NCBI GenBank assembly: GCA_023245755.1
Contig: JAHFJQ010000001.1
Location: 1-36,017, forward strand
Length of the DNA stretch: 36,017 bases
Reading direction: 5' to 3'
Source of the DNA: an archaeon
GTDB taxonomy: Archaea > Nanobdellota > Nanobdellia > SCGC-AAA011-G17 > GW2011-AR17
Under the pieces are notes generated by a model that did not search any database, was not told where the DNA came from, and saw nothing but the letters and a program-made list of their open reading frames with translations. The stretch's first letter is position 1, and every line of letters starts with the position of its first letter. Shown here in pieces: positions 5,436 through 35,637 of the stretch. A program made the position numbers and the translations under genes.

Positions 5436-6284
5436 ATGGTGTTAGAATCCCTATTGGGAGTAAAAGAGGCAGAAAAAAGACCTTATTATGTATTTCTTCT
5501 AGGAATGCTTTACGCATCTGTTGCAGTCTTTCTTAGCTTATGGATTTTCAGAACAGAAGCAAGTCTTATTCTTGTATTTCTCATGGTACTTGCATCACTT
5601 CCTCTTATTTACAAAACAACAACCTTTGAAGCAAAAAAGAGTTACAATCTTACAGAAGACAAACTTCCAAGAGTACACATAGACGCCCTTAAAGTTTTCA
5701 TGTACCTCTTTATGGGTTTCACTGTTGCTATGGCTCTCTGGTACATCTTCCTTCCAACGGACATAGTCACAGATTTATTTTCTTCACAAATGTCAACAAT
5801 TAAAGCAATAAATGGAAATGTAGCAACAGGAAACGTAACATCCTGGACCTTTCTATCTACAATTTTACTCAACAATCTAAAGGTTCTCGTACTCTGTATG
5901 CTTTTCTCTTTTTTCTTTGGCGCAGGAGCTCTTTTTATTTTTGCATGGAATGCATCAGTCATAAGCACTGCAATGGGTAACTTTGTGAGAAACGGTATTG
6001 CAGAGTATGCTTCATCCATAGGTTTTACAAGAATAGGACTCTATTTCCAAGTGTTTTCTCTTGCTCTTCTCAGATACATGACACATGGAGTTTTTGAAAT
6101 TCTTGCATATCTCGTTGCAGGCTTTGCTGGAGGACTGATTTCTATTGCAATGATCAACAAACATTTTGAAGGAGACCATTTTAGAATCATTATCAAAGAT
6201 GCAGTAGATCTCATGATTTTAGCTGTGCTTCTTACCGTTATTGCTGGGCTCATTGAAGTCTTTATTACTCCTGCATTCTTCTAA
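5436..6284 (+). CDS. SpoIIM-like (DUF95) integral membrane protein
   Basis: Multi-pass membrane protein. NNLKVLVLCMLFSFFFGAGALFIFAWNASV and HGVFEILAYLVAGFAGGLIS resemble the stage II sporulation protein M family. Confidence 0.6.
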   Translation: MVLESLLGVKEAEKRPYYVFLLGMLYASVAVFLSLWIFRTEASLILVFLMVLASLPLIYKTTTFEAKKSYNLTEDKLPRVHIDALKVFMYLFMGFTVAMALWYIFLPTDIVTDLFSSQMSTIKAINGNVATGNVTSWTFLSTILLNNLKVLVLCMLFSFFFGAGALFIFAWNASVISTAMGNFVRNGIAEYASSIGFTRIGLYFQVFSLALLRYMTHGVFEILAYLVAGFAGGLISIAMINKHFEGDHFRIIIKDAVDLMILAVLLTVIAGLIEVFITPAFF

Positions 6285-6323
6285 TCCATAATTCTTATAA
6301 AAGCACATTTCTCAAGAAGAAAG

Positions 6324-8102
6324 ATGTGTGGGATTGTTGGATATTTCGGACCAAGAAATGGGGTGCCTATTGTTCTAGAAGGACTCAAACGACTTGAATA
6401 TCGGGGCTATGATTCTGCGGGTTTTGTAATACGAGAAGAGCAAGGATTAGATATTGTGAAAACAAAGGGAAAAATTCTCCAGCTCAAATCAATTGCAAAT
6501 GGAAGAACAGGAAATATTGTTGTAGGACAAACACGTTGGGCAACACACGGAGAGCCAAACTACGTAAACGCACACCCGCACCCTTCTATGGATGACTCCA
6601 TTGCAATTGTGCACAACGGAATCATAGAAAACCACTCCGATCTACGTAAAGAATTACAAGAAAAATATCATTTTACGTTTCGTTCACAAACAGATTCTGA
6701 AGTCATTGCACAGTTAATCCAGTTTTTTTACAAAGGAGATTTTGAAGAAGCATTCAGAAAAATGCTCACTAAGATTGAAGGTGCTTTTGGAATTGTTGCA
6801 GTACACAAAGACCACAAACAAATACTCTGCGCACGAAAGGGATCACCCCTAGTATTAGGAGTCAATGGAAAAGAAATCTTCATTGCAAGTGATCCAACCC
6901 CATTCTTAGAATATACAAAAGACGTTGTGTACCTAAATGAAAAGCAAATGGCAAGTATTACCGATCAAGGATATCAGATCAAAGACTTTAATGGATTAAA
7001 CATCCAAATAGAAATGGAGACCATTCCTTTCGGTATAGAAGCAATTCAAAAAGGAGGTTTCCAGCATTTCATGCTCAAAGAAATATACGAGCAAGCAGAA
7101 ACAATACAAAATTGTTTCAGAGGAAAGATTAAACATATCGATGCCATTGCAATCAAGAAAGAAAACATCAAAAGGATTATTTTTGTTGCATGTGGAACAA
7201 GTTACTTTGCTTCTCTAGTTGGGAAATATATTCTAGAAAGAACTTCACACATACCTGTAACAGTAGAACATGCATCAGAATTTCGCTATAGACAACCTAT
7301 GCTTTACAATACAGACTTAGTTATTGCAGTATCACAATCCGGAGAAACTGCAGATACTTTAGAAGCAATTCGTTTAAGTAAGAGAGTGGGATGTAATGTT
7401 GCAGGAATTGTGAATGTGACAGGCTCTTCTATTGCAAAGGAATGTGGCCAAGGAATTTATCTCCATGCTGGTCCAGAAATTGGAGTCGCATCAACAAAGG
7501 CATTTTCTTCACAAATTGTGGCATTTATTATGCTCAATCTCTACGTAAATCAAAATCCTTATTATCGTGCAGACCTAATAGAAGAATTAGAAAAACTCCC
7601 AGAGAAAGTAAAAGCATTCTTCACCATTCAAGATGTAAAATCAGTTGCAGAAAAGTACAAAGATGCAAGGTATTTTATGTTTATGGGACGGGACATTAAT
7701 TATCCTGTCGCAATGGAAGGAGCATTAAAACTCAAAGAAATCTCTTACATCCCAGCAGAAGGCTATCCCGCAGGAGAAATGAAACATGGCCCTATTGCTT
7801 TGATCGATGAACATACTCCTTCAGTATTCTTAATTACAAGGGATACAGTGTATGAAAAAGTAATTTCAAATATGGAAGAAGTAAAAAGCAGAAGAGGAAA
7901 GATTATTTGTATATGTAATGAAATAACCCCAGAAATTGAACACCTTAGTGATGACATCATTCTTATTCCTAAAGTGCGTTGGGAATTCACTCCTATTCTT
8001 AATGTCTTACCACTTCAATTACTTGCATATCACATTGCAAATGCAAATGGACGCGAAATAGACCAACCAAGAAACTTAGCAAAGGCTGTGACAGTAGAGT
8101 AA
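6324..8102 (+). CDS. glmS: Glutamine--fructose-6-phosphate aminotransferase (isomerizing)
   Basis: N-terminal MCGIVGY nucleophile Cys of Ntn amidotransferases, two SIS domains (GTSYFA, SQSGETADT), and canonical C-terminus LAKAVTVE. Confidence 0.95.
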   Translation: MCGIVGYFGPRNGVPIVLEGLKRLEYRGYDSAGFVIREEQGLDIVKTKGKILQLKSIANGRTGNIVVGQTRWATHGEPNYVNAHPHPSMDDSIAIVHNGIIENHSDLRKELQEKYHFTFRSQTDSEVIAQLIQFFYKGDFEEAFRKMLTKIEGAFGIVAVHKDHKQILCARKGSPLVLGVNGKEIFIASDPTPFLEYTKDVVYLNEKQMASITDQGYQIKDFNGLNIQIEMETIPFGIEAIQKGGFQHFMLKEIYEQAETIQNCFRGKIKHIDAIAIKKENIKRIIFVACGTSYFASLVGKYILERTSHIPVTVEHASEFRYRQPMLYNTDLVIAVSQSGETADTLEAIRLSKRVGCNVAGIVNVTGSSIAKECGQGIYLHAGPEIGVASTKAFSSQIVAFIMLNLYVNQNPYYRADLIEELEKLPEKVKAFFTIQDVKSVAEKYKDARYFMFMGRDINYPVAMEGALKLKEISYIPAEGYPAGEMKHGPIALIDEHTPSVFLITRDTVYEKVISNMEEVKSRRGKIICICNEITPEIEHLSDDIILIPKVRWEFTPILNVLPLQLLAYHIANANGREIDQPRNLAKAVTVE

Positions 8103-22259: not shown

Positions 22260-25232
22260 CTATCCCTTCACTACACCAAGGGGTTTCAATTGCACAACAA
22301 TCTTGCCAATACCAGCTTCATCACTCACAGAAACAACTTCATCAACGTTCTTATATGCACCAGGAGCTTCTTCACTAATTCCTTTCCAAGATGCAGCTTT
22401 AATAAAAATATGTTCTTTTTCAAGATCTTTCTTTACCTGCTCACCTGTCCAAGTATTATTTGCAGTATGTCGTGACATCAGTCGTCCAGCACCATGTGCA
22501 GTACTCCCAAAACTTTCAGCCATAGCCCCTTCTGTTCCAACAAGAATATACGAAGAGGTCCCCATACTTCCAGGCAGTAAAATAGGCTGTCCTACTTTTT
22601 GATACTTCTTTGGAACTTCTGCTCGTCCAGGCCCAAATGCTCGTGTCGCACCTTTTCTATGGACATACACTTCACAGCTTTCACCATCAATAACATGGGT
22701 TTCTAATTTTGCAATATTGTGTGCTACATCATACAAAGTAGTCAATTCTACTTTCTCTCCAAATACTTCTTTGAATGCTGTTCGTACTTGATGCCCAATG
22801 ATATGTCGATTAGCCCATGCAAAATTCGCAGCAGCACACATAGCACCATAGTAATCCTTTGCTAACTGACTCTGTGCAGGGGCATAAATTAAATCCCTAT
22901 CAGGAAGCGTTTTCACAATATCTGGAAAAGTATCCTCCATCAATCGTAAATAATCTGAACAGACTTGATGGCCTAATCCTCGTGAACCACAATGAATCAT
23001 AAGAACAATTTGCCCTTCTTCAAGTCCAAAAGTTTTTGCTGCATCTTTATGAAAAACTTTTCGTACTTCCTGTACTTCAAGAAAATGATTTCCTGCACCA
23101 AGTGTTCCTAACTGCCCTATTCCTCGTTCTCGTGCTTTTCTACTGACTTTACTTGGATCAGCACCAGGCATTTTTCCACCTTCTTCACAAAACTCAAGAT
23201 CTTCTTTGCTCCCATACCCACGAGATACAGCCCAAGCTGCACCATCACGTAAAACATCATCTAATTCTTTGGTACCCACCTTCACTTGTGATCGTCTTCC
23301 TACTCCAGGAGGAACATGAGTAAAAATAGCATCTAAGAGCTGTTGTATTTTGGGCTCAACATCTTTTTTGGTAAGGTTTGTTCGCAAAACTCGTACACCA
23401 CAGTTAGAAACAACCATATTTTCTGCAATAAAATTATGATCCCTATCATTCATAGTTACATCATAGACCATTCCATCATAAGGAACTAAGTGTATAGACG
23501 AAATTTCTGACCATGCTAACCCTTCATCACCCCAAGCATATTTTTTACAATAATCCTCAAACTTTAAACAAGAAAGAGCAATACGAACATTTTCTTTGTC
23601 TTCATACAAGGATCGTTCTATAAACCTTTCATTAACGTATTCTCCTTTAAGAGTACTCATAATAACTTGAGGAGGGAACATATACTCTTTCATAGCTTTA
23701 GCTCTTTGACGTGCTTTTAAACGAATATGCAAAACCTGTTCTTTATATCGGGCATAGTGAGCAGTAAGCATAGCAAGGCGTTGTTTTTCTTTATGATACT
23801 CAAAACCAACAGTCTCCAAAAAACGAAGATGATTTTCAGGATTTGTCTGAATCAATATCCTCCAGCCTGTTGTTTCTCCATCAACACTATCATATGTATA
23901 ACCGTCTACAGGAACGGGTTCACAACTAGTAACCTGAAACGCAGCAAGAAGAGTTCGAATATCATTGAGAAATTCTAAAGCATTCTTTTCAAGACTTCTT
24001 AATTTATTCATACCAAGACTATATTCCATAAAATTATACCCATTATTACTTTTGGGAGAAGAAAGTTCAGCACCAAAAAAAGAAGCCAAAAATAATCTCT
24101 GTTGCCACAAAGGAGCATTCATAACCCAAGTAGGAACACGATACTCTTGTGTCGTTTTTTTCCCAACAGGACATCCTAAAGCAACTAAGAGAGCAAAGAA
24201 GCCTGTTGCTTTTTTTTGCAAACTATACTCAGTAACAGAGAATTCATTCACTCCATATCGTGTTTTTATCTTATGCTCTCTTTCTCTATGATAAACCCCA
24301 AATCCTGTAATGCCAATATTTTGTAAATCCTTTTGAATGGTAAGCAGATCTTCTTCTTTTCCATAACAACTAACGACCCCTTGAGAAGAGAAATAAATAG
24401 TTCCATCTCCAAAAAGAATACCTAAAAACTTTAAAAGAACAGGAAGTTGTGGAGAATTATAACGCAAAGGAAGAATATTTAATTCTTTAAGAGAATGAAG
24501 AATTTGTTTTCTGGCATTACCTATATCAGTAATCTGAAAGATATCAAGAACAGAGAGTATATCATCTTCACTAACAAGGATATCATCACTAGGCTCTTCA
24601 TATTCTACACCTTTAAACGAAGAAATCAGTAAAGTATCCTCTTTCGAAAGTTCTTCAGCTCTTTTCATTCCATTTTGTGTAAACAAAGGATGATCATCTG
24701 TAACTTGAATGGTATGACCAGTCTTTGTTCGAATTTCAAAAAGAACACCAGAGCCAGGTTTTTTCATAAATGCTAATAGTTTACTATCCTTAAGTTGCTT
24801 TGTTGTAAAATCAGAATGACGTAAATGAAGGGTATTCCATTTTTGCTCAAGATCTTTAATCTGTAACCATGTACCATATTGTAAAGAAACTTTACTATCA
24901 TCTTTAAGACAGTTAATATCAAATCCAATTCCCCCAGGACTAATACAACCCGTTTTCGCATCAATAGCTGCAACGCCCCCAATACTAAACCCATAGCCTT
25001 GGTGAGCATCCGGCATCATAACAGAATGTCCTTTAATTCCTGGAAGGGTTGCAACATGTACACCTTGACAAATACACGTATCCTCTAACATCTTTTGCAT
25101 GAGCTTTTCATCAGCAAAAATCTTCACAGGAACTTTCATATCTCCCTGCTTTTCAATAATATAAGAATAATGATTCAACTTCTTGGGTTGAATATGCATA
25201 ACTGTTCCATCTTTTTTTTTGCAGTCTACCAT
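22260..25232 (-). CDS. rtcB: tRNA-splicing/RNA 3'-phosphate ligase RtcB, interrupted by one intein
   Basis: Exteins carry RtcB signatures: MPDAHQGYGF, GGIGFDIN|CGVRVLRTN, GAGNHFLEVQ, HCGSRGLGHQ, HRKGAT, PGSMG, STAHGAGR. The ORF is open from 25268, but ATG 25232 lies 2 nt after the archease stop and gives a normal RtcB N-terminus. Confidence 0.95.
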   Translation of the reverse strand: MVDCKKKDGTVMHIQPKKLNHYSYIIEKQGDMKVPVKIFADEKLMQKMLEDTCICQGVHVATLPGIKGHSVMMPDAHQGYGFSIGGVAAIDAKTGCISPGGIGFDINCLKDDSKVSLQYGTWLQIKDLEQKWNTLHLRHSDFTTKQLKDSKLLAFMKKPGSGVLFEIRTKTGHTIQVTDDHPLFTQNGMKRAEELSKEDTLLISSFKGVEYEEPSDDILVSEDDILSVLDIFQITDIGNARKQILHSLKELNILPLRYNSPQLPVLLKFLGILFGDGTIYFSSQGVVSCYGKEEDLLTIQKDLQNIGITGFGVYHREREHKIKTRYGVNEFSVTEYSLQKKATGFFALLVALGCPVGKKTTQEYRVPTWVMNAPLWQQRLFLASFFGAELSSPKSNNGYNFMEYSLGMNKLRSLEKNALEFLNDIRTLLAAFQVTSCEPVPVDGYTYDSVDGETTGWRILIQTNPENHLRFLETVGFEYHKEKQRLAMLTAHYARYKEQVLHIRLKARQRAKAMKEYMFPPQVIMSTLKGEYVNERFIERSLYEDKENVRIALSCLKFEDYCKKYAWGDEGLAWSEISSIHLVPYDGMVYDVTMNDRDHNFIAENMVVSNCGVRVLRTNLTKKDVEPKIQQLLDAIFTHVPPGVGRRSQVKVGTKELDDVLRDGAAWAVSRGYGSKEDLEFCEEGGKMPGADPSKVSRKARERGIGQLGTLGAGNHFLEVQEVRKVFHKDAAKTFGLEEGQIVLMIHCGSRGLGHQVCSDYLRLMEDTFPDIVKTLPDRDLIYAPAQSQLAKDYYGAMCAAANFAWANRHIIGHQVRTAFKEVFGEKVELTTLYDVAHNIAKLETHVIDGESCEVYVHRKGATRAFGPGRAEVPKKYQKVGQPILLPGSMGTSSYILVGTEGAMAESFGSTAHGAGRLMSRHTANNTWTGEQVKKDLEKEHIFIKAASWKGISEEAPGAYKNVDEVVSVSDEAGIGKIVVQLKPLGVVKG
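23403..24911 (-). mobile_element. Intein (503 aa) with LAGLIDADG homing-endonuclease domain inside rtcB
   Basis: Begins with Cys (CLKDDSKVSL) right after GFDIN. Block B is TDDH. Two LAGLIDADG motifs (LLKFLGILFGDGTIYF, FLASFFGAELSSP). Ends ...FIAENMVVSN, followed by the +1 Cys of CGVRV. Junction codons were checked on the sequence. Confidence 0.9.
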
Positions 25233-25234
25233 TT

Positions 25235-25663
25235 TTATATATCTAACACCATTTGTATAGTCACGCACGTTTTTTCTTCTTTTATAAACATATCGTTATA
25301 GGTACTCGACTTAATTTGTGTAATAATTTCATACTGGTCACCACTATCTCCAAGAACGACAGCAAGAAGAGACAGACCCTTTGTTGTTTCAGTAATACGT
25401 AAAGATTCTACCTGAGCTAAAAGAAAACCTTCTGTATCAACAAAGAATAAAAGTTCTTGAATGAAATCATAGAGAAGTGTTTCTTTGGATTTTGCTTTGA
25501 CAGAGACCTTTTTCTTTTTCTTGGCTTTTACTTTTGTAATATCCGTCATCGTTGCAAAAGTAGCAAGGGCAGCATGAGAAAATGCCTCATCAAGTGTTTT
25601 CCCATAAGCAAGAAATTTCACATCAGCAGTATGAGGAAGAAAAGTGTATTTTTGCATAGACAT
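25235..25663 (-). CDS. Archease (RtcB activator)
   Basis: YTFLPHTADVKFLAYGKTLDEAFSHAALA and C-terminal KSSTYNDMFI...VTIQMVLDI match the archease family. Sits immediately upstream of rtcB. Confidence 0.9.
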   Translation of the reverse strand: MSMQKYTFLPHTADVKFLAYGKTLDEAFSHAALATFATMTDITKVKAKKKKKVSVKAKSKETLLYDFIQELLFFVDTEGFLLAQVESLRITETTKGLSLLAVVLGDSGDQYEIITQIKSSTYNDMFIKEEKTCVTIQMVLDI

Positions 25664-26634: not shown

Positions 26635-27582
26635 CTATTTCTTTCGAAAAAGAAAATAGACAAGTAGCCCAACAAAAATACCAAATAGAACCATACCAAC
26701 AATAGGAACAACAGAGTTTGTCAGTAAAGAGCGTTGCAAATCATATCCAGTCAAACTCAAATCACCAATAACAATAGTATTAAAGTAACTCGTTCCCTGA
26801 AACAACAAAAAGAGCAGTCCGATAAACACAAGAAGAATTCCAGAAACAATCTGCGTGGTATGTGTTTCATATTTCTTTCCAAAGATCGTAAAAGAAACAA
26901 GTTTGCCCTTTATCCAAGAAACCTCTGAAAGACGAAAACCATCTACAAAGAAAGAAAGCAAAAAAAAGGGCACAAAATTTCCCAGTGCGTAAAAGAACAT
27001 AAGTAAAGCAACTTTAAGATAACTTCCTAGCACGGTAGCAATAAGAAGCACACCACCAAGAATGGGGCCAGTACATGCAGTCCAGCCAAGAGCAAAAAGC
27101 ATCCCTAAAAGAAACACTCCAAAAAGACTTTTCGCCTTAAACACTTTTACAGGTAAAAAAGAAAACCCCTTCCCCAGAATTTGCATAATACCAAAAAGAA
27201 TCAGAAAGAGACCCGCAATAAAAATCAAAGAGCTATTCTTAGATTGAAAAAGAAGAATACTCTGCCCAATTGCAGAAGCAATAAGACCTAAAGAAATAAA
27301 CACCGTAGTAAAACCCAAAAAGAAAGTAAGAGTATGTAAAGTACTTCGTTTCTCTAAACCATAAGAAAAGTACATAGGGATGGTTGCAAGTGTACAGGGA
27401 GAAAGCAGTGCAAGTAATCCTCCTAAAAAGGCAACAAAATAACTAATTGCTTCCAAATAATATACAGCCTGTTCATTATTATATTCTAAAACCTTTTGAA
27501 GCCCAGGAGGTAATTCCAAAGCAGAAGCTACACAAGTAAAGAGAAGGATACAAATCAAAGAAAAAAACAGGATTTTTTTCAT
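26635..27582 (-). CDS. ccdA: CcdA/DsbD-family transmembrane thiol-disulfide electron transporter
   Basis: Signal-like N-terminus and multiple TM helices. The two hallmark Cys motifs are LALLSPCTLATIPMYF and ALGWTACTGPILGG. Confidence 0.85.
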   Translation of the reverse strand: MKKILFFSLICILLFTCVASALELPPGLQKVLEYNNEQAVYYLEAISYFVAFLGGLLALLSPCTLATIPMYFSYGLEKRSTLHTLTFFLGFTTVFISLGLIASAIGQSILLFQSKNSSLIFIAGLFLILFGIMQILGKGFSFLPVKVFKAKSLFGVFLLGMLFALGWTACTGPILGGVLLIATVLGSYLKVALLMFFYALGNFVPFFLLSFFVDGFRLSEVSWIKGKLVSFTIFGKKYETHTTQIVSGILLVFIGLLFLLFQGTSYFNTIVIGDLSLTGYDLQRSLLTNSVVPIVGMVLFGIFVGLLVYFLFRKK

Positions 27583-27630: not shown

Positions 27631-28095
27631 TTAGATATTTTCCTTAGCAGGAGGATCGCTTTTCTCATAAAGATAAAGAAAATTTGCAGCAGAAGTATGT
27701 CCCCACCAGCTCTTACGCAGTTTAATATCATACCCCCAAGCATCAGAGCCATGAAATGCAACAGCCATGGTAGCAAGTGCTAAACAAAAATCACGCACAG
27801 CAATATCATTATAGCCTAAACTAAATGCAATACCAAAAAGATGTAAAGAAAGCAAAAGTGCACTTAAGCGTGTAAACAACCCTAAGACTAAAAAGATACC
27901 AAAGACAGTTTCAAAAATTCCATTCAAATAAATAAAAGTTAAAGGCTCTACAGGAAGTGAACTTGTCCAAGAAGGAAGCCATGCTACCCATGCCCCAGCA
28001 TGAAATAATTGATTCAAACCAAACCAAAGAAAAAGAAAAGCAACAGAATAACGTAAGAAGATAGAAGAAAAATTTCGTAATCGTGTATAAGTCAT
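27631..28095 (-). CDS. DoxX/MauE-like redox-associated membrane protein
   Basis: 154 aa, four TM helices. FLRYSVAFLFLWFGLNQL and IFETVFGIFLVLGLFTRLSALLLSLHLFG fit the DoxX pattern. Upstream of ccdA on the same strand. Confidence 0.7.
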   Translation of the reverse strand: MTYTRLRNFSSIFLRYSVAFLFLWFGLNQLFHAGAWVAWLPSWTSSLPVEPLTFIYLNGIFETVFGIFLVLGLFTRLSALLLSLHLFGIAFSLGYNDIAVRDFCLALATMAVAFHGSDAWGYDIKLRKSWWGHTSAANFLYLYEKSDPPAKENI

Positions 28096-28205: not shown

Positions 28206-28994
28206 ATGGAACACGAAAACGAAAGCGAAAAAAAAGTGTACAATCCTGAACACAAAACACATGAACATACGGAACATAAAGAACACCATGAGCAACATAC
28301 AAACCATGGTCCAAAAGAAAAACCTTCAAAGATTACAATTACAAATTGGGTTCTTCTCGTTTTATTCGCAGCGATTCTTCTTTTTAACCAATATCAAGTC
28401 ATGGGGCTAACATCTAGTGGAAGCTCAGGCTTCTCCTATGGTGGCGATGATCTTTCTGATGTAGATGTAACACAAATTCAATCAACTGCACAAGGAATCG
28501 CACTTCTTTTCCCAGTCAGTGAAATAAAAACGACAGAAGATGCAATTGCAATTATGATTCCAACTGGCACTCCAGAATATGGAGAAGCTATGGGAGTATC
28601 TTATGATGACCCAGTAACAGCTCTGAGTTTACTGGAAAATGGATATGCTTCATTAAAAGCACAAGCACAAGCTGATCCAGTAGTTTGGGATCGTTACCTT
28701 GCTCTTGCTGCAGCTCCAAGAGGAATTTCTTGTGAGTTCTGTTGTGGCGTTGGAGCACAGGGAATTAGTGCAGATGGTACTTCGCGATGTGGCTGTGCAC
28801 ACAACCCTGCAGTACAATCAGTAACATTATGGCTCATGTTAAATACAGATTATTCTGACGCAGAAATCCTACGAGAAGTCTACAGATGGAAATCTTTATG
28901 GTTCCCACAAGACATGGTAGGCCTTGCATTACAAATAGCAGGTGGCGATACAAGCGTTTTAGAAGATTTACCAGGAATGGTAGGGGGATGTTAA
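28206..28994 (+). CDS. Membrane-anchored protein with His-rich N-tail, extracytoplasmic Cys cluster and C-terminal LPGMVGGC
   Basis: GGTGA SD. N-terminus HKTHEHTEHKEHHEQHTNH, then one TM helix (WVLLVLFAAILLF). Cys cluster CEFCCGVGAQGISADGTSRCGCAHNP, possibly PCYCGC-like. Ends LPGMVGGC-stop. Confidence 0.6.
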   Translation: MEHENESEKKVYNPEHKTHEHTEHKEHHEQHTNHGPKEKPSKITITNWVLLVLFAAILLFNQYQVMGLTSSGSSGFSYGGDDLSDVDVTQIQSTAQGIALLFPVSEIKTTEDAIAIMIPTGTPEYGEAMGVSYDDPVTALSLLENGYASLKAQAQADPVVWDRYLALAAAPRGISCEFCCGVGAQGISADGTSRCGCAHNPAVQSVTLWLMLNTDYSDAEILREVYRWKSLWFPQDMVGLALQIAGGDTSVLEDLPGMVGGC

Positions 28995-28995
28995 A

Positions 28996-29217
28996 ATGAT
29001 GAATAAAAATTGGATTTTTGCTATAATACTAGCAATTTTAGTCGTTGTCTCTGTGATTCAAGCAGTGCAACTTAGTGGGATCAAAGATGACATAAGTAAT
29101 GGAGATATAAGCACATCAAGTGGATCTTCTTCTGCAAGTGTAGCAAGTTCAGAAAGCTCTACAAGTAGTAGTAGTTCTTCCTTAAGTGAACTTCCATCCA
29201 TGGTTGGTGGGTGTTAA
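28996..29217 (+). CDS. Miniprotein: TM helix + poly-Ser stalk + C-terminal LPSMVGGC
   Basis: 73-aa ORF starting 1 nt after the previous stop. WIFAIILAILVVVSVIQAV, then a Ser-rich tract, ending LSELPSMVGGC-stop. The motif is shared with the upstream gene but encoded with different synonymous codons. Confidence 0.5.
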   Translation: MMNKNWIFAIILAILVVVSVIQAVQLSGIKDDISNGDISTSSGSSSASVASSESSTSSSSSSLSELPSMVGGC

Positions 29218-29240: not shown

Positions 29241-30323
29241 ATGAAAACGATAAAAGCAGAAAAAGTAACGTGGATTCTCTTGGGACTTATAGCCCTTGTT
29301 CTTATAATCAACCTCTATTTTACAACAGCAATGCAAGGAATAACAAAAGACCTTGCTTCGCAAACAGAAGAGCTCAATCGAGCTGCGCAAATACAAGTAA
29401 CAACCATTAGCGATGCAAGCTGTTCTGACTGTTTTGACATTTCTACTGTAGTGGATTCCATTACAAGTGCAAACGTTGAAGTGACTTCACAAACAGAACT
29501 AGACTATACAGAAGCAAGTGCACAAGAACTTATTGAAAAATATAATATTGAAAAGCTTCCGACAGTGATTGTTACCGGAGAAATTGCAAAAGAAGGCTCA
29601 CCGATTACAGGTTTAACAAGTGTCCAAGACGCTCTCATTTTTGAAAACCTAGAACCTGTATACTTAGAAGTAAGCTCTGGTGAATACAGAGGCAGAGTTC
29701 AAGCAACTTTAATTCAAAATAGTGAATGTGAAGACTGTTACGACCTAGGAAGCTTCGTTGACACACTCAAAGAACTCATATCAATATCTGATGTGAATAC
29801 CATCGAGTTAAGTGATGCCTCTGCAGAAGTGGAAACATACAACCTCTCAGAAGTACCAGCAGTGATTTTAAGTGGAGATCTAGCTCTCTACCCAGATACA
29901 GTACAAAAGCTAGAAGCACTGGGAGTATATGTAGGAGATGACCTTGTTCTTACTGCAAAGCTCAATCCTCCTTACTGGGATCTTGCAGATGATGAAGCAA
30001 AAGGCCTAGTAAGTATAGTTTATCTTACGGATGATTCTTGTGAAGACTGTTATAATGTAAATATTCACAAGACCGTACTAGAAAATTATGGCGTATTCCT
30101 TGCCCAGGAAAGTACAGTAGACATCTCTAGTAGTGAAGGACAGGACTTAGTAAACAAATACAGTATTACTCAAGTTCCAACAATCATCGCATCTTCAGAT
30201 ATGAAATACTATACAGACCTAGAAAAAGTCTGGGAAAAAGTAGGATCTGTAGAAGACGATGGAAGCTATGTCTTTAGAAATGTCAGTATTGTATCTGCAA
30301 ACTACACGGATCTGAGCGAATAA
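29241..30323 (+). CDS. Membrane-anchored protein with three tandem thioredoxin-fold CxxC modules
   Basis: N-terminal TM helix. Three ~100-aa repeats, each with a CxDC(F/Y) site (CSDCF aa61, CEDCY aa163, CEDCY aa267) and a downstream cis-Pro-type motif (KLPTVIV, EVPAVIL, QVPTIIA). Confidence 0.7.
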   Translation: MKTIKAEKVTWILLGLIALVLIINLYFTTAMQGITKDLASQTEELNRAAQIQVTTISDASCSDCFDISTVVDSITSANVEVTSQTELDYTEASAQELIEKYNIEKLPTVIVTGEIAKEGSPITGLTSVQDALIFENLEPVYLEVSSGEYRGRVQATLIQNSECEDCYDLGSFVDTLKELISISDVNTIELSDASAEVETYNLSEVPAVILSGDLALYPDTVQKLEALGVYVGDDLVLTAKLNPPYWDLADDEAKGLVSIVYLTDDSCEDCYNVNIHKTVLENYGVFLAQESTVDISSSEGQDLVNKYSITQVPTIIASSDMKYYTDLEKVWEKVGSVEDDGSYVFRNVSIVSANYTDLSE

Positions 30324-32526: not shown

Positions 32527-32958
32527 CTACCTGTTTCTTCGCTTAGAAGGCTTTGTTCCTTTAAAGTGCCAATATGCTACTCCTACCAAAAGAAGCACAC
32601 CTACACCAGCAAGGATCCATGGTAAAGTAGAACCTTCAGAAAAATATTCTGATGCAGGACGCTTTACTCCAGGTTTACAAACTCCACTAGCACAAATATA
32701 GTTAGAACCTAACGTTGAACAAGCAACATTTATAGTACTAATATCATTATTAATACCACTACCTGTACTTCTACATCCATATTCCAGAAGATTTGTACTG
32801 CTCTGACAAGAATCTGTTAACATAGATCCATTAGAAAGAGAAGCCGTACCTTTTACAGTATATGCAGTATTACTACCATCACTATCTGTACACACAGCAC
32901 TCACCAAGCCTACACCCAACAATAACAAACCTAATAGAATAACTATACTTTTTTTCAT
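32527..32958 (-). CDS. Secreted Cys-rich protein with conserved LPWIL C-terminal membrane anchor
   Basis: Signal peptide (ILLGLLLLGVGLVSAVC) and an ectodomain with 8 Cys (TDSC...LLEYGC...CASGVC). C-terminus is EYFSEGSTLPWILAGVGVLLLVGVAYWHFKGTKPSKRRNR. GGGGAGTGATG SD. Confidence 0.6.
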   Translation of the reverse strand: MKKSIVILLGLLLLGVGLVSAVCTDSDGSNTAYTVKGTASLSNGSMLTDSCQSSTNLLEYGCRSTGSGINNDISTINVACSTLGSNYICASGVCKPGVKRPASEYFSEGSTLPWILAGVGVLLLVGVAYWHFKGTKPSKRRNR

Positions 32959-33038: not shown

Positions 33039-35585
33039 TTAAAGAATATGCTTCTGCAACATCTTCTGAAGCTCAAAGAAAACAAATCCTGACGCAGCAA
33101 GAGGAAGGATAAGCATCCAGTCATAAACAGTCAAAGGCACCAAGGAAAAATAACTCGCTAAGGGAGTGTACAATAACACTAACTGAAGAAGGAAAGAAAA
33201 AAGCACAGCCCCATACAAATATCCATTTGCATCAAGAGAGAAAAAAGAATGCTCATCAGAACGAGATGCAAAGACAATAAAGAGCTCAAACAAAATCAAG
33301 GCTGTAAAACACACCGTCCGTGCCTTATCCAAATCTCCATACTGAGAATACCATAAGAAGAGCCCTAAAGTCACAGCTACAGACAGAAGTGTAGAAACGA
33401 AAAAGAAAGAATGCATACGCGAAAAGAAACTTTCTTTAGGATCTCTTGGCTTTTTTTGCATGATGCCTTTTTCAGCAGGATCAAGCCCCAAAGCTAAAGC
33501 AGGAAAACTATCCGTAACAAGATTTATCCAAAGTAATTGTAAGGGAAGCAGGGGCAAGGGAAGAGCAAGAACAAGAGCTAAGAAAACAAGAGCAACTTCA
33601 CCCAAGTTTGCAGCAATAAGATATTTAATAAATTTTTGGATATTTGCATAAATAACTCTTCCTTCTTCAACAGCAGCAACAATAGTTGCAAAGTTATCAT
33701 CTAAAAGAATAAGATCAGAAACATCCTTAGAAACATCCGTACCCTTCATATTCATTGCAACGCCCACATTTGCCTGTTTCAGTGCAGGAGCATCATTTAC
33801 ACCATCACCAGTCATTGCAACAATTTCTCCATTCGCCTGTAAAGCTTTTAAAATTCGTGCTTTATGTAAAGAATTTACTCGTGCGTAGATAGAAACATGG
33901 CGAGCAACTTTTCGTAATGCAGTATCAGAAAATGCATCAAGAGAACTTCCAGAAAGAGCTTCACCAACAATTCCAATTTGTGTAGCAACAGCACGAGCAG
34001 TAAGTTCATGATCACCTGTAATCATAACGCAGCGAATTCCAGCCTTTGTACACAGTGCAATGGCACCTTTCACTTCTGATCTCGCAGGATCCATCATTCC
34101 TACAAGTCCCACAAAACAAAGGTCTTTTTTTCCATAGGCAAAGGCAAGGACACGAAGTGCTTTTTGAGAGAACTCTTTATTTGTATGAAGAATCATTTTT
34201 TTATCTTGAGAAGTAATCTTTCGAATCTTTCCATCAATCTCAATAGAAGAACATTTACTAAGAACCACTTCAAGCGCTCCTTTCATATAGATAATCCCTT
34301 CTTTATCAGTCACAGTCATAAACTTCAAATCTGAAGAGAAAGGAACCTCAGAAACTCTATCCAAGGCAGCAACGCCTCCTTTAGCAGCAAGCACTTGCAA
34401 AGCTCTTTCTGTAGGGTCCCCAAGATCAAGCGTTGCATTATTACAACTCGTAGCAATCAATAACAAAGAACGGACATCTTTCTCTGTCTTCTTTCCTCGC
34501 AATAAAATATCTCCTTTAAGAGAATATCCTGAGCCTGTAACAGTATACTCTCGAAAAGAATGATACAAATGAGTGACAGTCATCTCATTCTTAGTCAAAG
34601 TTCCCGTCTTATCACTACAAATAACACTGACACTGCCTAAAGTCTCCACAGATTTTAGCTTGCGTATCAATGCTTTCCTTTTGAGCATTCTTCGTAGTCC
34701 CAAAGCAAGAGTAATAATCACCACTGCAGGCAAACCTTCTGGAATGGCAGCAACAGCCAAACTCACCGAAAGAAGAAACATCTCAACAAGGGCAAATCCC
34801 TCATACAAGCCTATACCAAAGATCAAAATACAAATAATAAGAACAAGAAAAGTAAGAACTTTCCCAATTTCTTTGAGTTTTTTCTGCAAAGGAGTTTCTT
34901 CTTGTTCAATAGTATCTAGTGCCTGTGCAATTTTTCCCAGTTCCGTACGCATTCCTGTAGCCACAACAAGAGCTCTTGCCTTTCCACGAACAAGGATAGT
35001 CCCAGCAAAAAGCATATTGCTTTGATCACCTAAAACAAGCTTCTCTTTTTTCAAGGTTTCAACTGTTTTTTTTACTGCTTTTGACTCTCCTGTAAGAGAT
35101 GCTTCATCAACTTCACAATCTACAAGAGAAAAAACACGACAATCTGCAGGAACCTTATCCCCTTCTTCAAGAATAAGAACATCCCCTGGAACAAGCGTAT
35201 CACTATGAACCAGAACATCTTTACCATCACGTAAAACACGAGAAGTATATTCTCTCATTTTTTGAAGAAGTTGGATGGCTTTTTCTGCTTTATACTCCTG
35301 AAACAAACCAAAGCCTGCATCAAAAAGAATCACAACAAGAATAATGACTGCATCAATAATATTACCAATAAAGAAAGAAACAATACATGCAAAAAGAAGA
35401 ACATAAATCAGAGGATCATGAATTTGATGGAAAAATAATTGAAAGAAGGATATTTTCTTTTCATGAGTAAGAGTATTTAGTCCATAATGTTGTAAACGTT
35501 TTCTTGCCTCTGCTGAAGATAATCCCTTCTCAGTTGTTTTCAAATCTTTAAAGATTGTTTGAACATCCTCTTGATAGAAAACCAT
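33039..35585 (-). CDS. P-type cation-transporting ATPase, P2A (Ca2+-ATPase-like)
   Basis: TGES, ICSDKTGTLT, M4 motif IPEGLPAVV, KGALE, MITGDH, TGDGVNDAPALK. The ORF is open from TTG 35597. The ATG at 35585 sits about 25 nt downstream of a TATA-like box and is the likelier start. Confidence 0.9.
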   Translation of the reverse strand: MVFYQEDVQTIFKDLKTTEKGLSSAEARKRLQHYGLNTLTHEKKISFFQLFFHQIHDPLIYVLLFACIVSFFIGNIIDAVIILVVILFDAGFGLFQEYKAEKAIQLLQKMREYTSRVLRDGKDVLVHSDTLVPGDVLILEEGDKVPADCRVFSLVDCEVDEASLTGESKAVKKTVETLKKEKLVLGDQSNMLFAGTILVRGKARALVVATGMRTELGKIAQALDTIEQEETPLQKKLKEIGKVLTFLVLIICILIFGIGLYEGFALVEMFLLSVSLAVAAIPEGLPAVVIITLALGLRRMLKRKALIRKLKSVETLGSVSVICSDKTGTLTKNEMTVTHLYHSFREYTVTGSGYSLKGDILLRGKKTEKDVRSLLLIATSCNNATLDLGDPTERALQVLAAKGGVAALDRVSEVPFSSDLKFMTVTDKEGIIYMKGALEVVLSKCSSIEIDGKIRKITSQDKKMILHTNKEFSQKALRVLAFAYGKKDLCFVGLVGMMDPARSEVKGAIALCTKAGIRCVMITGDHELTARAVATQIGIVGEALSGSSLDAFSDTALRKVARHVSIYARVNSLHKARILKALQANGEIVAMTGDGVNDAPALKQANVGVAMNMKGTDVSKDVSDLILLDDNFATIVAAVEEGRVIYANIQKFIKYLIAANLGEVALVFLALVLALPLPLLPLQLLWINLVTDSFPALALGLDPAEKGIMQKKPRDPKESFFSRMHSFFFVSTLLSVAVTLGLFLWYSQYGDLDKARTVCFTALILFELFIVFASRSDEHSFFSLDANGYLYGAVLFSFLLQLVLLYTPLASYFSLVPLTVYDWMLILPLAASGFVFFELQKMLQKHIL

Positions 35586-35637
35586 GAAAAGAAACAAGGA
35601 AAGAAAATTTATAAAACTATTGCCAAAAAAGAAAAAA

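What the first reader, a model, noticed from the sequence alone, without database searches (positions are those of the whole stretch)
28968..29214. Two adjacent proteins end in the same C-terminal motif LP(G/S)MVGGC-stop
Seen: the 262-aa protein ends ...SVLEDLPGMVGGC and the next 73-aa protein ends ...SLSELPSMVGGC. The rest of the two proteins is unrelated.

The shared residues use different synonymous codons (ATGGTAGGGGGATGT versus ATGGTTGGTGGGTGT). That argues for selection on the peptide rather than a recent DNA duplication.

The motif has an acidic residue at -8, Leu at -7, Met at -4 and Gly-Gly at -2/-1 relative to the final Cys. This mimics the double-glycine processing-site consensus (LSxxELxxIxGG). 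It also recalls ubiquitin-precursor-style GG-plus-one-residue tails. Here, however, it sits at the extreme C-terminus of predicted outward-facing, N-terminally anchored proteins.

Inference: the motif could be a C-terminal recognition or processing tag. It could also be a terminal Cys used for a mixed disulfide, lipid/thioether attachment or metal ligation by the neighbouring Trx/CcdA machinery.
Basis: partly seen in the sequence, partly recalled or inferred. Interest (0 to 1): 0.75.

Follow-up and report, generated by a model that had tools for sequence, protein, structure and literature searches.

The report
Matching cysteine tails on paired proteins
Two neighbouring membrane-anchored proteins of a small DPANN archaeon end in the same cysteine-tipped tail, which is conserved and co-evolves across many genomes and most likely places its cysteine in a cysteine-rich pocket of the larger protein, as part of an undescribed surface thiol/copper-handling system.

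Summary
ORF 28206..28994 (262 aa) ends LPGMVGGC and ORF 28996..29217 (73 aa) ends LPSMVGGC. The pair recurs in about 75 of 80 related genomes. Every synonymous codon is used, yet the peptide stays invariant.

The large protein has no Pfam, NCBIfam or PDB relative. Its outer domain is helical and carries an invariant CExCCG...CGCxH cluster.

Three results show what the tail does:
- Direct-coupling analysis pairs tail M258 with L140, and G261 with G181 (next to C179-C180). The tail therefore docks with its cysteine against the cluster.
- The two tails co-vary within genomes. Met to Gln occurs in both proteins in 6 of 6 cases, with 0 of 72 discordant.
- Two relatives of the large protein that lack the tail still have a tail-bearing small partner beside them.

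The small protein is therefore an "arm-only" partner that can supply the cysteine in trans.

The constant operon partners are a protein with three thioredoxin-like CxxC domains and CcdA. Copper genes (CopA, cupredoxin, DUF411, MerT/HMA proteins, Met/His-rich proteins) lie nearby in about half of the loci.

It is not a sorting or double-glycine processing signal. The chemistry (copper(I) handling versus pure thiol relay) remains inferred.

The parts
28206..28994 (+). Large protein (262 aa). It has a His/Lys-rich N-terminal segment, one membrane helix (about residues 45-70), a helical outer domain of a fold with no PDB match, and the C-terminal tail.
   Evidence: 568 homologues; invariant residues listed; no Pfam or NCBIfam family. 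AF2 mean pLDDT 85, and 90-98 over residues 81-250; no PDB sequence or fold match.
28731..28802 (+). Invariant cysteine/histidine cluster C176-E-F-C179-C180-G181 ... C195-G-C197-A-H199 of the large protein.
   Evidence: Invariant columns in alignments A1 and A2. The cluster is kept in divergent representatives. G181 is coupled to tail residue G261.
28623..28625 (+). Codon of L140, at the start of helix 136-155. This is the inferred contact of tail residue M258.
   Evidence: DCA pair 140-258 ranks 13th of 15,051. E140 occurs only with Q258, in 4 of 4 sequences.
28968..28991 (+). Tail of the large protein, L255-P-G-M-V-G-G-C262.
28996..29217 (+). Small protein (73 aa). It has an N-terminal hydrophobic anchor or signal ending VIQAVQL, a Ser-rich low-complexity linker, and the tail. 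Its start lies 1 nt after the large gene's stop codon.
   Evidence: The gap between the two genes has this same size in 25 of 75 pairs (scored as 2, which counts from the last base of the stop to the first base of the start). The family consensus is m.k..i.a.vL.vLv..s.VQA.QL..lK...p.sl.nLP.MVGGC.
29191..29214 (+). Tail of the small protein, L66-P-S-M-V-G-G-C73.
   Evidence: It co-varies with the large protein's tail.
29241..30323 (+). Membrane-anchored protein with three thioredoxin-like domains, each with a CxxC motif (CSDC, CEDC, CEDC).
   Evidence: Thioredoxin_3, and a weak match to PDO TIGR02187. It follows the small gene in 55 loci. 54 of 57 members have three CxxC motifs.
26635..27582 (-). 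CcdA/DsbD-type membrane thiol-disulfide transporter (315 aa) with the two conserved membrane cysteines, C63 and C170.
   Evidence: DsbD_TM, DsbD_2. Present in 57 of 80 loci, usually downstream on the same strand. The two cysteines are conserved in 59/59 and 58/59 sequences.
27631..28095 (-). DoxX-family membrane protein. It is an optional neighbour, found in 12 of 80 loci.

Best explanation
The tail [LIVM]-P-x-[MQ]-V-G-G-C is a docking arm, not an export or cleavage signal.

In the large protein the tail folds back onto the protein's own outward-facing helical domain. Met-258 packs against residue 140. The Gly-Gly-Cys end packs against C179-C180-G181. The terminal thiol thereby joins the invariant CExCCG...CGCxH cluster.

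The small protein is an arm-only partner. It consists of a membrane anchor, a 30-50 residue flexible linker and the same tail. It can place its own terminal cysteine in the same pocket in trans.

Most likely chemistry (inferred): the cluster plus one or two tail cysteines binds, and hands on or sequesters, a thiophilic metal, probably Cu(I), at the cell surface. CcdA carries reducing equivalents across the membrane to the protein with three thioredoxin-like domains. That protein keeps these exposed cysteines reduced, or resolves disulfides they form. This parallels the Scs and TlpA-Sco pathways of bacteria.

What is shown:
- conservation of the tail;
- pairing of the two genes;
- co-variation of the two tails;
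- evolutionary coupling between tail and cluster;
- gene neighbourhoods.

What is inferred:
- outward-facing topology;
- docking in trans;
- metal identity;
- direction of electron flow.
For: 1. Conservation. The tail is present in 117 of 120 close homologues. It is kept in 111 of 150 representatives clustered at 50% identity. Most of the other 39 are truncated fragments or still end in a variant tail with Cys. All synonymous codons are used.

2. Docking.
- Mean-field DCA on 300 sequences ranks pair 140-258 13th and pair 181-261 19th of 15,051 long-range pairs.
- 7 of 12 sequences with a non-Gly at 261 also have a non-Gly at 181, against 9 of 288 otherwise.
- E140 goes with Q258 in 4 of 4 sequences, including the distant L033.
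- AF2 gives residues 241-260 a pLDDT of 87-90.

3. One common reader for both tails.
- Gln replaces Met at -4 in both proteins in 6 of 6 genomes: L005, L081, L082, L087, L090 and L092. None of 72 other pairs is discordant. Fisher P = 3.9e-9, uncorrected for phylogeny.
- Four separate Q-type lineages were sampled. For at least three of them the nearest relative is M-type, so at least three switches look independent.
- Pro-6 is lost in both proteins in L027 and in the second pair of L052.

4. Supply in trans. Two relatives of the large protein lack the tail: P0176 in L093 and P0218 in L094. L093 is 38% identical to the window protein, E = 3e-29. Each has an adjacent small protein ending LPEMVGGC or LPGMVGGC.

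5. Redox partners. The gene order large - small - three-Trx protein - CcdA is conserved. The catalytic cysteines of both partners are conserved. The small gene and the three-Trx gene are both missing in L009, L012 and L013.

6. Metal context.
- A cupredoxin, DUF411/CopG, HMA+CPC P-type ATPase or MerT/HMA protein lies within 6 kb in 39 of 80 loci. The figure is 18 of 33 for loci with at least 4 kb on both sides.
- In divergent loci the large gene sits directly beside Met/His-rich secreted proteins and CopA-type ATPases.
- His-rich N-terminal segments occur in 26 of 82 large and 10 of 75 small proteins.

7. Precedents. A CxCC motif plus Met binds a Cu4 cluster in CopG (PMC7558416). ScsC binds Cu(I) and depends on a DsbD-like protein (PMC10907172, PMC8900818).
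Against: - No direct evidence of metal binding or redox activity exists.
- The window's own locus has no recognisable copper gene within 6 kb; its P-type ATPase at 33039..35597 is the P2 cation type. About half of all loci have none either.
- The DCA couplings rest on few variant sequences. They cannot tell docking in cis from docking in trans or from a domain swap.
- The model coordinates could not be inspected, so the C262-C180 distance is unverified.
- In the wider family Q258 also occurs with I, L or M at position 140, so that coupling is partly clade-specific.
- Met to Gln is nearly isosteric. It fits a packing role better than a Cu(I) thioether ligand role.
- Why most genomes keep two tails for one inferred pocket is unexplained.
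- Topology is inferred only from hydrophobic segments and flanking charges. The small protein's VQA|VQL could be a signal-peptidase site, which would make it a secreted peptide of about 50 aa.
Confidence: 0.45

Rival explanations
1. A pure thiol-disulfide relay with no bound metal. The large protein would be a non-thioredoxin oxidoreductase. C176-x-x-C179 would be its active pair. The tail cysteines (its own and the small protein's) would be shuttle cysteines that form mixed disulfides with C180. They would carry electrons between CcdA, the three-Trx protein and client proteins. Copper genes would lie nearby because copper causes disulfide stress.
For: The constant partners are redox proteins, not metal proteins. 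The window locus has only CcdA, the three-Trx protein and DoxX. A helical domain with a CxxC and a cysteine on a flexible C-terminal tail is the layout known from Erv2, Ero1 and DsbB (my own knowledge). The tail-cluster coupling fits this reading equally well. DsbA-like genes occur in 8 loci.
Against: No cofactor or electron-acceptor site is evident, and there is no fold match to Erv, Ero1, DsbB or VKOR. A single shuttle cysteine needs a resolving partner. This reading does not explain the His-rich N-terminal segments. It also does not explain why Met/His-rich secreted proteins and CopA sit directly beside the large gene in divergent loci.
Confidence: 0.25
2. The terminal cysteine is only structural: a fourth ligand of a structural zinc site, or a disulfide that staples the tail. 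The small protein would then be a decoy or regulator that competes for the groove.
For: C176-x-x-C179 ... C195-x-C197 resembles a zinc-knuckle arrangement, and the AF2 model shows short beta bridges there. The tail is predicted to be ordered. Tail-less relatives of the large protein exist.
Against: A structural staple would not require a separately encoded, co-evolving arm-only protein in about 95% of genomes. Nor would it require a dedicated CcdA/three-Trx reducing pathway in the same operon. The tail-less relatives keep the small partner, so the cysteine itself appears to be needed.
Confidence: 0.1
3. A C-terminal processing or sorting tag. Candidates are double-glycine cleavage, ubiquitin-like GG exposure, sortase-like LPx...G transpeptidation, or attachment to the envelope.
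For: The tail resembles LSxxELxxIxGG at positions -8, -7, -4, -2 and -1, and resembles LPxTG. The large protein has an invariant Cys, His and Arg that could in principle form a catalytic set.
Against: The tail is restricted to two always-paired families. No C39/ABC exporter, sortase, archaeosortase or rhombosortase appears among the conserved neighbours. There is no hydrophobic segment plus basic stretch after the motif. The residue after GG is an invariant Cys. Coevolution indicates a stable docked state.
Confidence: 0.07
4. A SoxY-like carrier arm. The terminal cysteine would carry sulfur (persulfide or thiosulfonate) or another covalently bound intermediate between enzymes.
For: SoxY carries its substrates on the Cys of a C-terminal GGCGG arm (PMC6067878). 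DoxX is adjacent in the window. Rhodanese genes occur in 3 loci.
Against: No Sox, Dsr or TQO enzymes are in the neighbourhoods. Neither protein matches a SoxY model. DoxX is present in only 12 of 80 loci.
Confidence: 0.05
5. C-terminal lipidation. M-V-G-G-C fits the lipobox pattern, so an Lgt-type enzyme could attach a lipid to the last cysteine and anchor both ends of the proteins in the membrane.
For: MVGGC satisfies [LIVMFWSTAG](2)-[LIVMFYSTAGCQ]-[AGS]-C, the PROSITE lipobox pattern as I recall it. An Lgt homologue lies within 6 kb in 10 of 80 loci.
Against: Lipoboxes act at the end of an N-terminal signal peptide, not at a C-terminus (my own knowledge). Lgt is neither adjacent nor constant. 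Coupling to residues 140 and 181 indicates a contact with protein, not with lipid.
Confidence: 0.03

Closest known systems
SoxY C-terminal swinging arm (GGCGG) of the SoxYZ carrier
   Same: A cysteine flanked by glycines at the extreme C-terminus of an exported protein. It acts as a mobile arm that enters the sites of partner proteins (PMC6067878).
   Different: SoxY has an Ig-like domain and a SoxZ partner, and it works with SoxAX, SoxB and SoxCD. Here there is no SoxY homology and no Sox genes. The Cys is the very last residue. The arm also exists as a separate protein with no globular domain.
C-terminal cysteine tails of MerA (Cys-Cys), thioredoxin reductase (GCUG) and Erv2 (CGC)
   Same: A flexible C-terminal tail carries a thiol or selenol that docks at an internal cysteine pair and passes on a metal ion or electrons (my own knowledge).
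   Different: Those enzymes are flavoproteins of known folds, and the tail belongs to the same polypeptide family. Here the fold is new, the location is outside the cytoplasm, and a second gene supplies the same tail.
Scs system (ScsB/ScsC/ScsD/ScsA) and the CcdA/TlpA-Sco pathways
   Same: A DsbD/CcdA-type transporter feeds thioredoxin-like proteins outside the cytoplasm. These proteins bind Cu(I) or protect thiols under copper stress. The operon also holds a non-thioredoxin membrane protein of unknown role that carries cysteines (PMC10907172, PMC8900818, PMC3322552).
   Different: Here the thioredoxin-like protein has three tandem CxxC domains. The large and small proteins have no counterpart in Scs. 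The lineage is archaeal.
CopG (DUF411) copper-resistance protein
   Same: A cysteine-dense motif with adjacent cysteines (CxCC there, CxxCC here) plus Met, in a protein outside the cytoplasm. DUF411 genes lie in 10 of the related loci (PMC7558416).
   Different: CopG has a thioredoxin-like fold. The large protein is helical and has no sequence match to DUF411.
Double-glycine leader peptides (LSxxELxxIxGG) cut by C39-peptidase ABC exporters
   Same: Acidic or polar residue at -8, Leu at -7, hydrophobic residue at -4, Gly-Gly at -2/-1.
   Different: Those leaders are N-terminal, are followed by a core peptide, and need a C39/ABC exporter. Here the motif is C-terminal and is followed by a single invariant Cys. 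It has Pro at -6, and no such exporter is nearby.
Sortase LPXTG and other C-terminal sorting signals (PGF-CTERM, GlyGly-CTERM)
   Same: An L-P-x start and a glycine, near the C-terminus of surface proteins.
   Different: Sorting signals have a hydrophobic helix and a basic stretch after the motif. They mark many unrelated substrates per genome and co-occur with a sorting enzyme. None of these holds here.

Membership tests
Double-glycine leader / C39-peptidase substrate | The motif lies in an N-terminal leader followed by a core peptide. | tested here: not met
   The motif forms the last 8 residues, and only one residue (Cys) follows GG.
Double-glycine leader / C39-peptidase substrate | A C39 peptidase-ABC exporter is encoded nearby. 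| tested here: not met
   No such family appears among the recurrent neighbour clusters of the 80 loci. Not every window ORF was scanned.
Sortase / exosortase / archaeosortase sorting signal | A tripartite signal: motif, hydrophobic helix, basic tail. | tested here: not met
   The protein ends at the Cys.
Sortase / exosortase / archaeosortase sorting signal | The signal is shared by many unrelated substrates and co-occurs with a sorting enzyme. | tested here: not met
   Only the two paired families carry the tail in about 1 Mb of related loci. No sorting enzyme is among the conserved neighbours. Whole genomes could not be searched.
SoxY sulfur carrier | SoxY domain homology, a SoxZ partner and Sox enzymes. 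| tested here: not met
   No Pfam or NCBIfam match, and no Sox genes among the neighbours.
SoxY sulfur carrier | A C-terminal glycine-flanked Cys that carries a covalent intermediate. | not testable with these tools
   The sequence feature is similar (VGGC versus GGCGG). The chemistry needs mass spectrometry.
Bacterial-type lipoprotein (lipobox) | The lipobox Cys follows an N-terminal signal peptide (roughly the first 35 residues). | tested here: not met
   The pattern matches, but at the C-terminus.
CcdA/DsbD-dependent extracytoplasmic reducing pathway (as clients) | Co-encoded with a CcdA/DsbD_TM protein that has two membrane cysteines, and with a CxxC thioredoxin-like protein. | tested here: met
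CcdA/DsbD-dependent extracytoplasmic reducing pathway (as clients) | The client cysteines are reduced by the pathway. | not testable with these tools
   This needs thiol trapping in vivo or in vitro.
CopG / DUF411 | Match to the DUF411 thioredoxin-like domain. | tested here: not met
   No match for the large protein. DUF411 proteins are separate neighbours.
Thioredoxin-fold or Erv/Ero1/DsbB/VKOR oxidoreductases | Fold or sequence similarity. | tested here: not met
   No PDB fold hit with E below 1. No significant PDB sequence hit: the only match has E = 0.62.

The most novel reading that the evidence does not exclude
A split functional site. A domain-less peptide tethered to the membrane (the small protein) delivers an essential C-terminal cysteine in trans into the cysteine/histidine cluster of an extracytoplasmic protein of new fold. 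Together they would form a previously unknown kind of copper(I)-handling or thiol-redox machine. It is widespread in DPANN archaea, is maintained by a dedicated CcdA/three-thioredoxin pathway, and has no homologue among characterised proteins.
Probability: 0.35. Interest if true: 0.8.

Novelty: new variant of a known kind. Interest (0 to 1): 0.68.

Why it matters
DPANN archaea have very small genomes. A four-gene module conserved across at least six DPANN lineages, as the deposited records label them, is therefore likely to matter for life at their cell surface, where they meet hosts and metals.

Both tail-bearing proteins are annotated only as hypothetical. The large one has a confidently predicted fold with no solved relative.

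The data make three things directly testable:
- a specific pocket-and-arm contact (140-258 and 181-261);
- supply of a cysteine in trans by a minimal carrier peptide;
- a link between extracytoplasmic thiol reduction and copper homeostasis in archaea, for which no Scs- or Sco-like system has been described in this group.

If confirmed, this would add a new carrier-arm design to the short list that includes SoxY, MerA and thioredoxin reductase. It would also give a name and a function to several hundred orphan protein clusters.

Tried and rejected
- Pfam and NCBIfam scans of both proteins gave nothing above threshold.
- A PDB sequence search with the family profile, and a Foldseek search of the AF2 model against the PDB, gave nothing.
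- A full-text literature search for 'MVGGC', and one for DPANN + CcdA + thioredoxin, found nothing relevant.
- A homology search with the 73-aa protein returned only 11 hits, because the protein is short and low in complexity. The GTDB loci were far more informative.
- I looked for a 'reader' of the tail by finding residues in the three-Trx protein or CcdA that switch together with the M-to-Q change. Only weak, probably lineage-specific candidates appeared.
- Plain mutual information gave only weak tail-domain signals. DCA sharpened them.
- Some large proteins carry a fused N-terminal multi-helix membrane domain with a G-C-P-x-C-G motif (P0111, P0112, L059, L069, and several representatives). 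It has no Pfam match and few homologues, none of them named. Its AF2 model is poor (pLDDT 59), so no fold search was run on it.
- The 386-aa membrane protein next to the tail-less relative in L093 could not be shown to be CcdA.
- Chance and recent DNA duplication were considered and rejected.
- A general sorting signal, the double-glycine leader, the lipobox and SoxY membership were considered and rejected (see the membership tests).
Full report
**1. The observation**

ORF 28206..28994(+) encodes 262 aa ending ...SVLEDLPGMVGGC. ORF 28996..29217(+), which starts one base after the first ORF's stop codon, encodes 73 aa ending ...SLSELPSMVGGC. The shared residues use different codons. No other VGGC-stop exists in any frame of the window.

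The window is an AT-rich (36.5% GC) DPANN-type archaeal contig. It carries an intein-containing RtcB, archease, ribosomal protein S2 and enolase. Its closest relatives are labelled Woesearchaeota or AR17.

**2. The tail is conserved, not a chance match**

- The 262-aa protein has 568 detectable homologues. Of the best 120, 117 end MVGGC and 2 end QVGGC.
- A profile search of a 1.8-billion-protein library clustered at 50% identity found 278 clusters. 111 of the 150 listed end V/x-G-G-C. Most of the others are truncated fragments, or variants that still end in Cys, such as MVGSC, MVGDC and MRGGC.
- I fetched 80 loci from GTDB species representatives. By their record titles they are Woese-, Pace-, Nano-, Micr-, Aenigmat- and Iainarchaeota, with a few labelled bacterium, Patescibacteria or Methanosarcinales.
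- In almost all of them a small ORF of 63-113 aa follows the large gene. In 25 of 75 pairs the spacing is the same as in the window.
- The small ORF has a conserved anchor (...vL.vLv..s.VQA.QL..lK), a variable Ser/Gly/Thr-rich linker, and the ending ...p.sl.nLP.MVGGC.
- Where the small ORF seemed absent, the contig usually ended there (L033, L035, L069, L079). Only L009, L012 and L013 truly lack it, and they also lack the three-thioredoxin gene.
- All synonymous codons occur at each tail position in both families. The small ORF is therefore a real gene, and selection acts on the peptide.

**3. The two proteins are not otherwise unrelated**

Profile-profile alignment matches about 18 C-terminal columns (P = 1.4e-8). 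It also matches the two membrane anchors weakly and in the same order, through a shared (N/Q)xxQ(L/I) motif (P = 7.6e-4). The small protein looks like the large one without its globular domain.

**4. What the large protein is**

- It matches no Pfam or NCBIfam model and no PDB sequence.
- AF2, run with 118 aligned sequences, gives a confident model. Mean pLDDT is 85, and 90-98 over residues 81-250. The model shows one membrane helix and an all-helical outer domain. A short non-helical insert holds C176-E-F-C-C-G181 and C195-G-C-x-H199.
- Foldseek finds no PDB fold with E below 1.
- The invariant residues include C176, E177, C179, C180, G181, C195, C197, H199, P201 and the tail residues P256, V259, G260, G261 and C262.

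**5. Where the tail goes**

Mean-field direct-coupling analysis was run on 300 non-identical family members (effective number about 226).

- The pair L140-M258 ranks 13th, and the pair G181-G261 ranks 19th, of 15,051 pairs at least 6 residues apart.
- The underlying counts are plain. 7 of 12 sequences with a side chain at 261 also have one at 181, against 9 of 288 otherwise.
- In the clade of the window, E140 (with N141) occurs only with Q258, in 4 of 4 sequences. One of these is L033, whose nearest relatives have Met.

The tail therefore lies along the start of helix 136-155, and its Gly-Cys end lies against C179-C180-G181. I could not read the model coordinates, so this contact rests on coevolution and on the high pLDDT of residues 241-260.

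**6. The two tails are read by the same thing**

- Gln replaces Met at -4 in both proteins of a genome in 6 of 6 cases: L005, L081/P0002, L082/P0014, L087/P0171, L090/P0195 and L092/P0182. It is never discordant in 72 other pairs. Fisher P = 3.9e-9, uncorrected for phylogeny.
- These six genomes fall into four separate Q-type lineages. For at least three of them the nearest relative of the Q-type protein is M-type, so at least three switches appear independent.
- Pro-6 is lost in both proteins in L027 (LRGMVGGC and LDTMVGGC). It is also lost in both in the second, divergent pair of L052 (GGGMVGGC and SSSGMVGGC).

**7. A natural experiment for supply in trans**

Two relatives of the large protein keep the cysteine cluster but end before the tail. 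P0176 in L093 is 38% identical to the window protein (E = 3e-29). P0218 is in L094. Each has an adjacent small protein ending ...NLPEMVGGC or ...SLPGMVGGC.

I looked these up as a test of the idea that the small protein's tail serves the large protein's pocket. Both cases came out as predicted.

**8. Context**

- The constant neighbours are a membrane-anchored protein with three thioredoxin-like domains and a CcdA/DsbD_TM protein. 54 of 57 of the former carry three CxxC motifs, mostly C-x-[DE]-C. The CcdA protein has two conserved membrane cysteines. The usual gene order is large, small, three-Trx, CcdA. In the window CcdA lies upstream on the other strand, beside a DoxX gene.
- Variable neighbours within 6 kb are dominated by metal genes:
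  - cupredoxins, in 19 loci;
  - HMA+CPC P-type ATPases, in 8 loci by a strict motif filter (10 by eye);
  - MerT/HMA fusion proteins, in 13 loci;
  - DUF411/CopG, in 10 loci;
  - Met/His-rich small proteins, in 10 loci;
  - ArsR regulators, in 9 loci;
  - BlaI-type repressors, in 14 loci, with M48/M56 sensor proteases in 12.
- At least one clear metal gene is present in 39 of 80 loci. The figure is 18 of 33 for loci with at least 4 kb on both sides.
- In divergent loci the large gene sits directly in copper-type operons:
  - L085: large gene, Met/His-rich secreted protein, Cys-rich membrane protein, HMA P-type ATPase;
  - L087: large gene, His/Met-rich secreted protein, small gene, BlaI;
  - L093: small gene, tail-less large gene, membrane protein, Met-rich protein, HMA ATPase.
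- Both proteins often carry His-rich N-terminal segments.

**9. Mechanism**

- Best supported: the tail is a docking arm that adds a terminal thiol to the cysteine/histidine cluster of the large protein. The small protein is a tethered arm-only partner that does the same in trans.
- Inferred: the site handles Cu(I) or another thiophilic metal. CcdA and the three-Trx protein keep the exposed cysteines reduced, as in the bacterial Scs and TlpA-Sco systems (PMC10907172, PMC8900818, PMC3322552).
- CopG shows that a CxCC motif plus Met can hold a Cu4 cluster (PMC7558416). SoxY shows that a C-terminal glycine-flanked Cys can act as a mobile carrier arm (PMC6067878).
- The main rival is a metal-free thiol relay. 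A structural-only cysteine, a processing or sorting tag, a sulfur carrier and lipidation are less likely, for the reasons given under the rival explanations.

**10. Weak points**

- There are no experimental data.
- The window's own locus has no copper gene.
- The couplings depend on few variant sequences and cannot separate docking in cis from docking in trans.
- The Met-to-Gln switch argues for packing rather than metal ligation by that residue.
- The need for two tails per genome is unexplained.
- The small protein might be cleaved at VQA|VQL and released.

**11. Novelty**

I found no description of either family or of the motif. They are absent from Pfam-A and NCBIfam, from PDB sequences and folds, and from the searched literature.

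The design principle, a C-terminal cysteine arm, is known from SoxY, MerA, thioredoxin reductase and Erv2. What is new is the fold, the motif, and above all the separately encoded, co-evolving arm-only partner. I rate it a new variant of a known kind, with a substantial chance that the mechanism is more unusual than that.

Noticed in passing
window 22260..25268 (-): The RtcB tRNA ligase here is 1002 aa and contains an intein (Pfam Intein_splicing spans residues 152-621). The syntenic RtcB in the related contig L081 is 474 aa and has no insert. Archease is adjacent at 25235..25663.
   Followed up: partly
P0111, P0112, L059:9266-10669, L069:3669-5027; stand-alone copies at L052:14461-14970, L024:834-1310(-), L055:5078-5539(-), L058:8312-8872: In some genomes the large protein is fused at its N-terminus to a domain of about 200 aa, predicted to have about four membrane helices. 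The domain has an invariant G-C-P-x-C-G inside a predicted helix, a P-F-x-G-L-E-x-K motif and a final CxxC. The same domain also occurs as a separate gene nearby. It has no Pfam match, few homologues and a poor AF2 model (pLDDT 59).
   Followed up: partly
L052:5120-6017, followed by 5995-8044: This locus holds a second, divergent large/small pair whose tails both lack Leu-Pro (GGGMVGGC and SSSGMVGGC). It lies next to a DUF411/CopG gene and a NapH-like 4Fe-4S membrane protein fused to a cupredoxin, in the same 20-kb metal island as the canonical pair.
   Followed up: partly
L001:10252-10470: One small-protein homologue ends LPYLVGGF, with Met replaced by Leu and Cys by Phe. Its large partner keeps LPGMVGGC. 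This could be a decaying copy or errors in the MAG sequence.
   Followed up: no
e.g. L072:10896-11372, L015:1289-1729 (27 of 80 loci): A membrane-anchored protein of about 147 aa is often inserted between or just after the large and small genes. By eye it resembles the thioredoxin-like domain fused to bacterial VKOR (YGA..C....Q...FG ... PTW ... L..L.GC), but here it has a single Cys in place of CxxC. It has no Pfam match.
   Followed up: partly
e.g. L045:2444-2947 (22 loci) and L058:8999-9472 (11 loci): Two further uncharacterised families recur in these neighbourhoods. One is a lipoprotein-like protein with H-x-H and H-T-H motifs. The other is a four-helix membrane protein with a CCAHH motif. 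Both may be metal-related.
   Followed up: no
L018:7637-8002(-) with L075:13006-13767(-); also L090, L092, L094: A BlaI-type repressor and a BlaR1-like M48/M56 membrane protease are often encoded divergently just upstream of the large gene. This suggests the operon is switched on by a signal sensed at the envelope.
   Followed up: no
L085:1202-1444, L087:1398-1709, L093:6357-6830, L094:1802-2143(-): Secreted or anchored proteins very rich in Met and His (for example MHGMMDHMADHM and NMMNMMGGGMM) sit beside divergent members of the large family. None has a Pfam match.
   Followed up: partly
window 28996..29217: The window's own 73-aa protein was not found at 100% identity in the 5.8-billion-protein collection, although the 262-aa protein was. 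The small gene was probably not called in the source assembly.
   Followed up: no
window 32527..32958 (-): A 143-aa protein with a signal peptide, a Cys-rich middle part and a C-terminal hydrophobic helix followed by a basic tail (...KGTKPSKRRNR). It has no family match.
   Followed up: no
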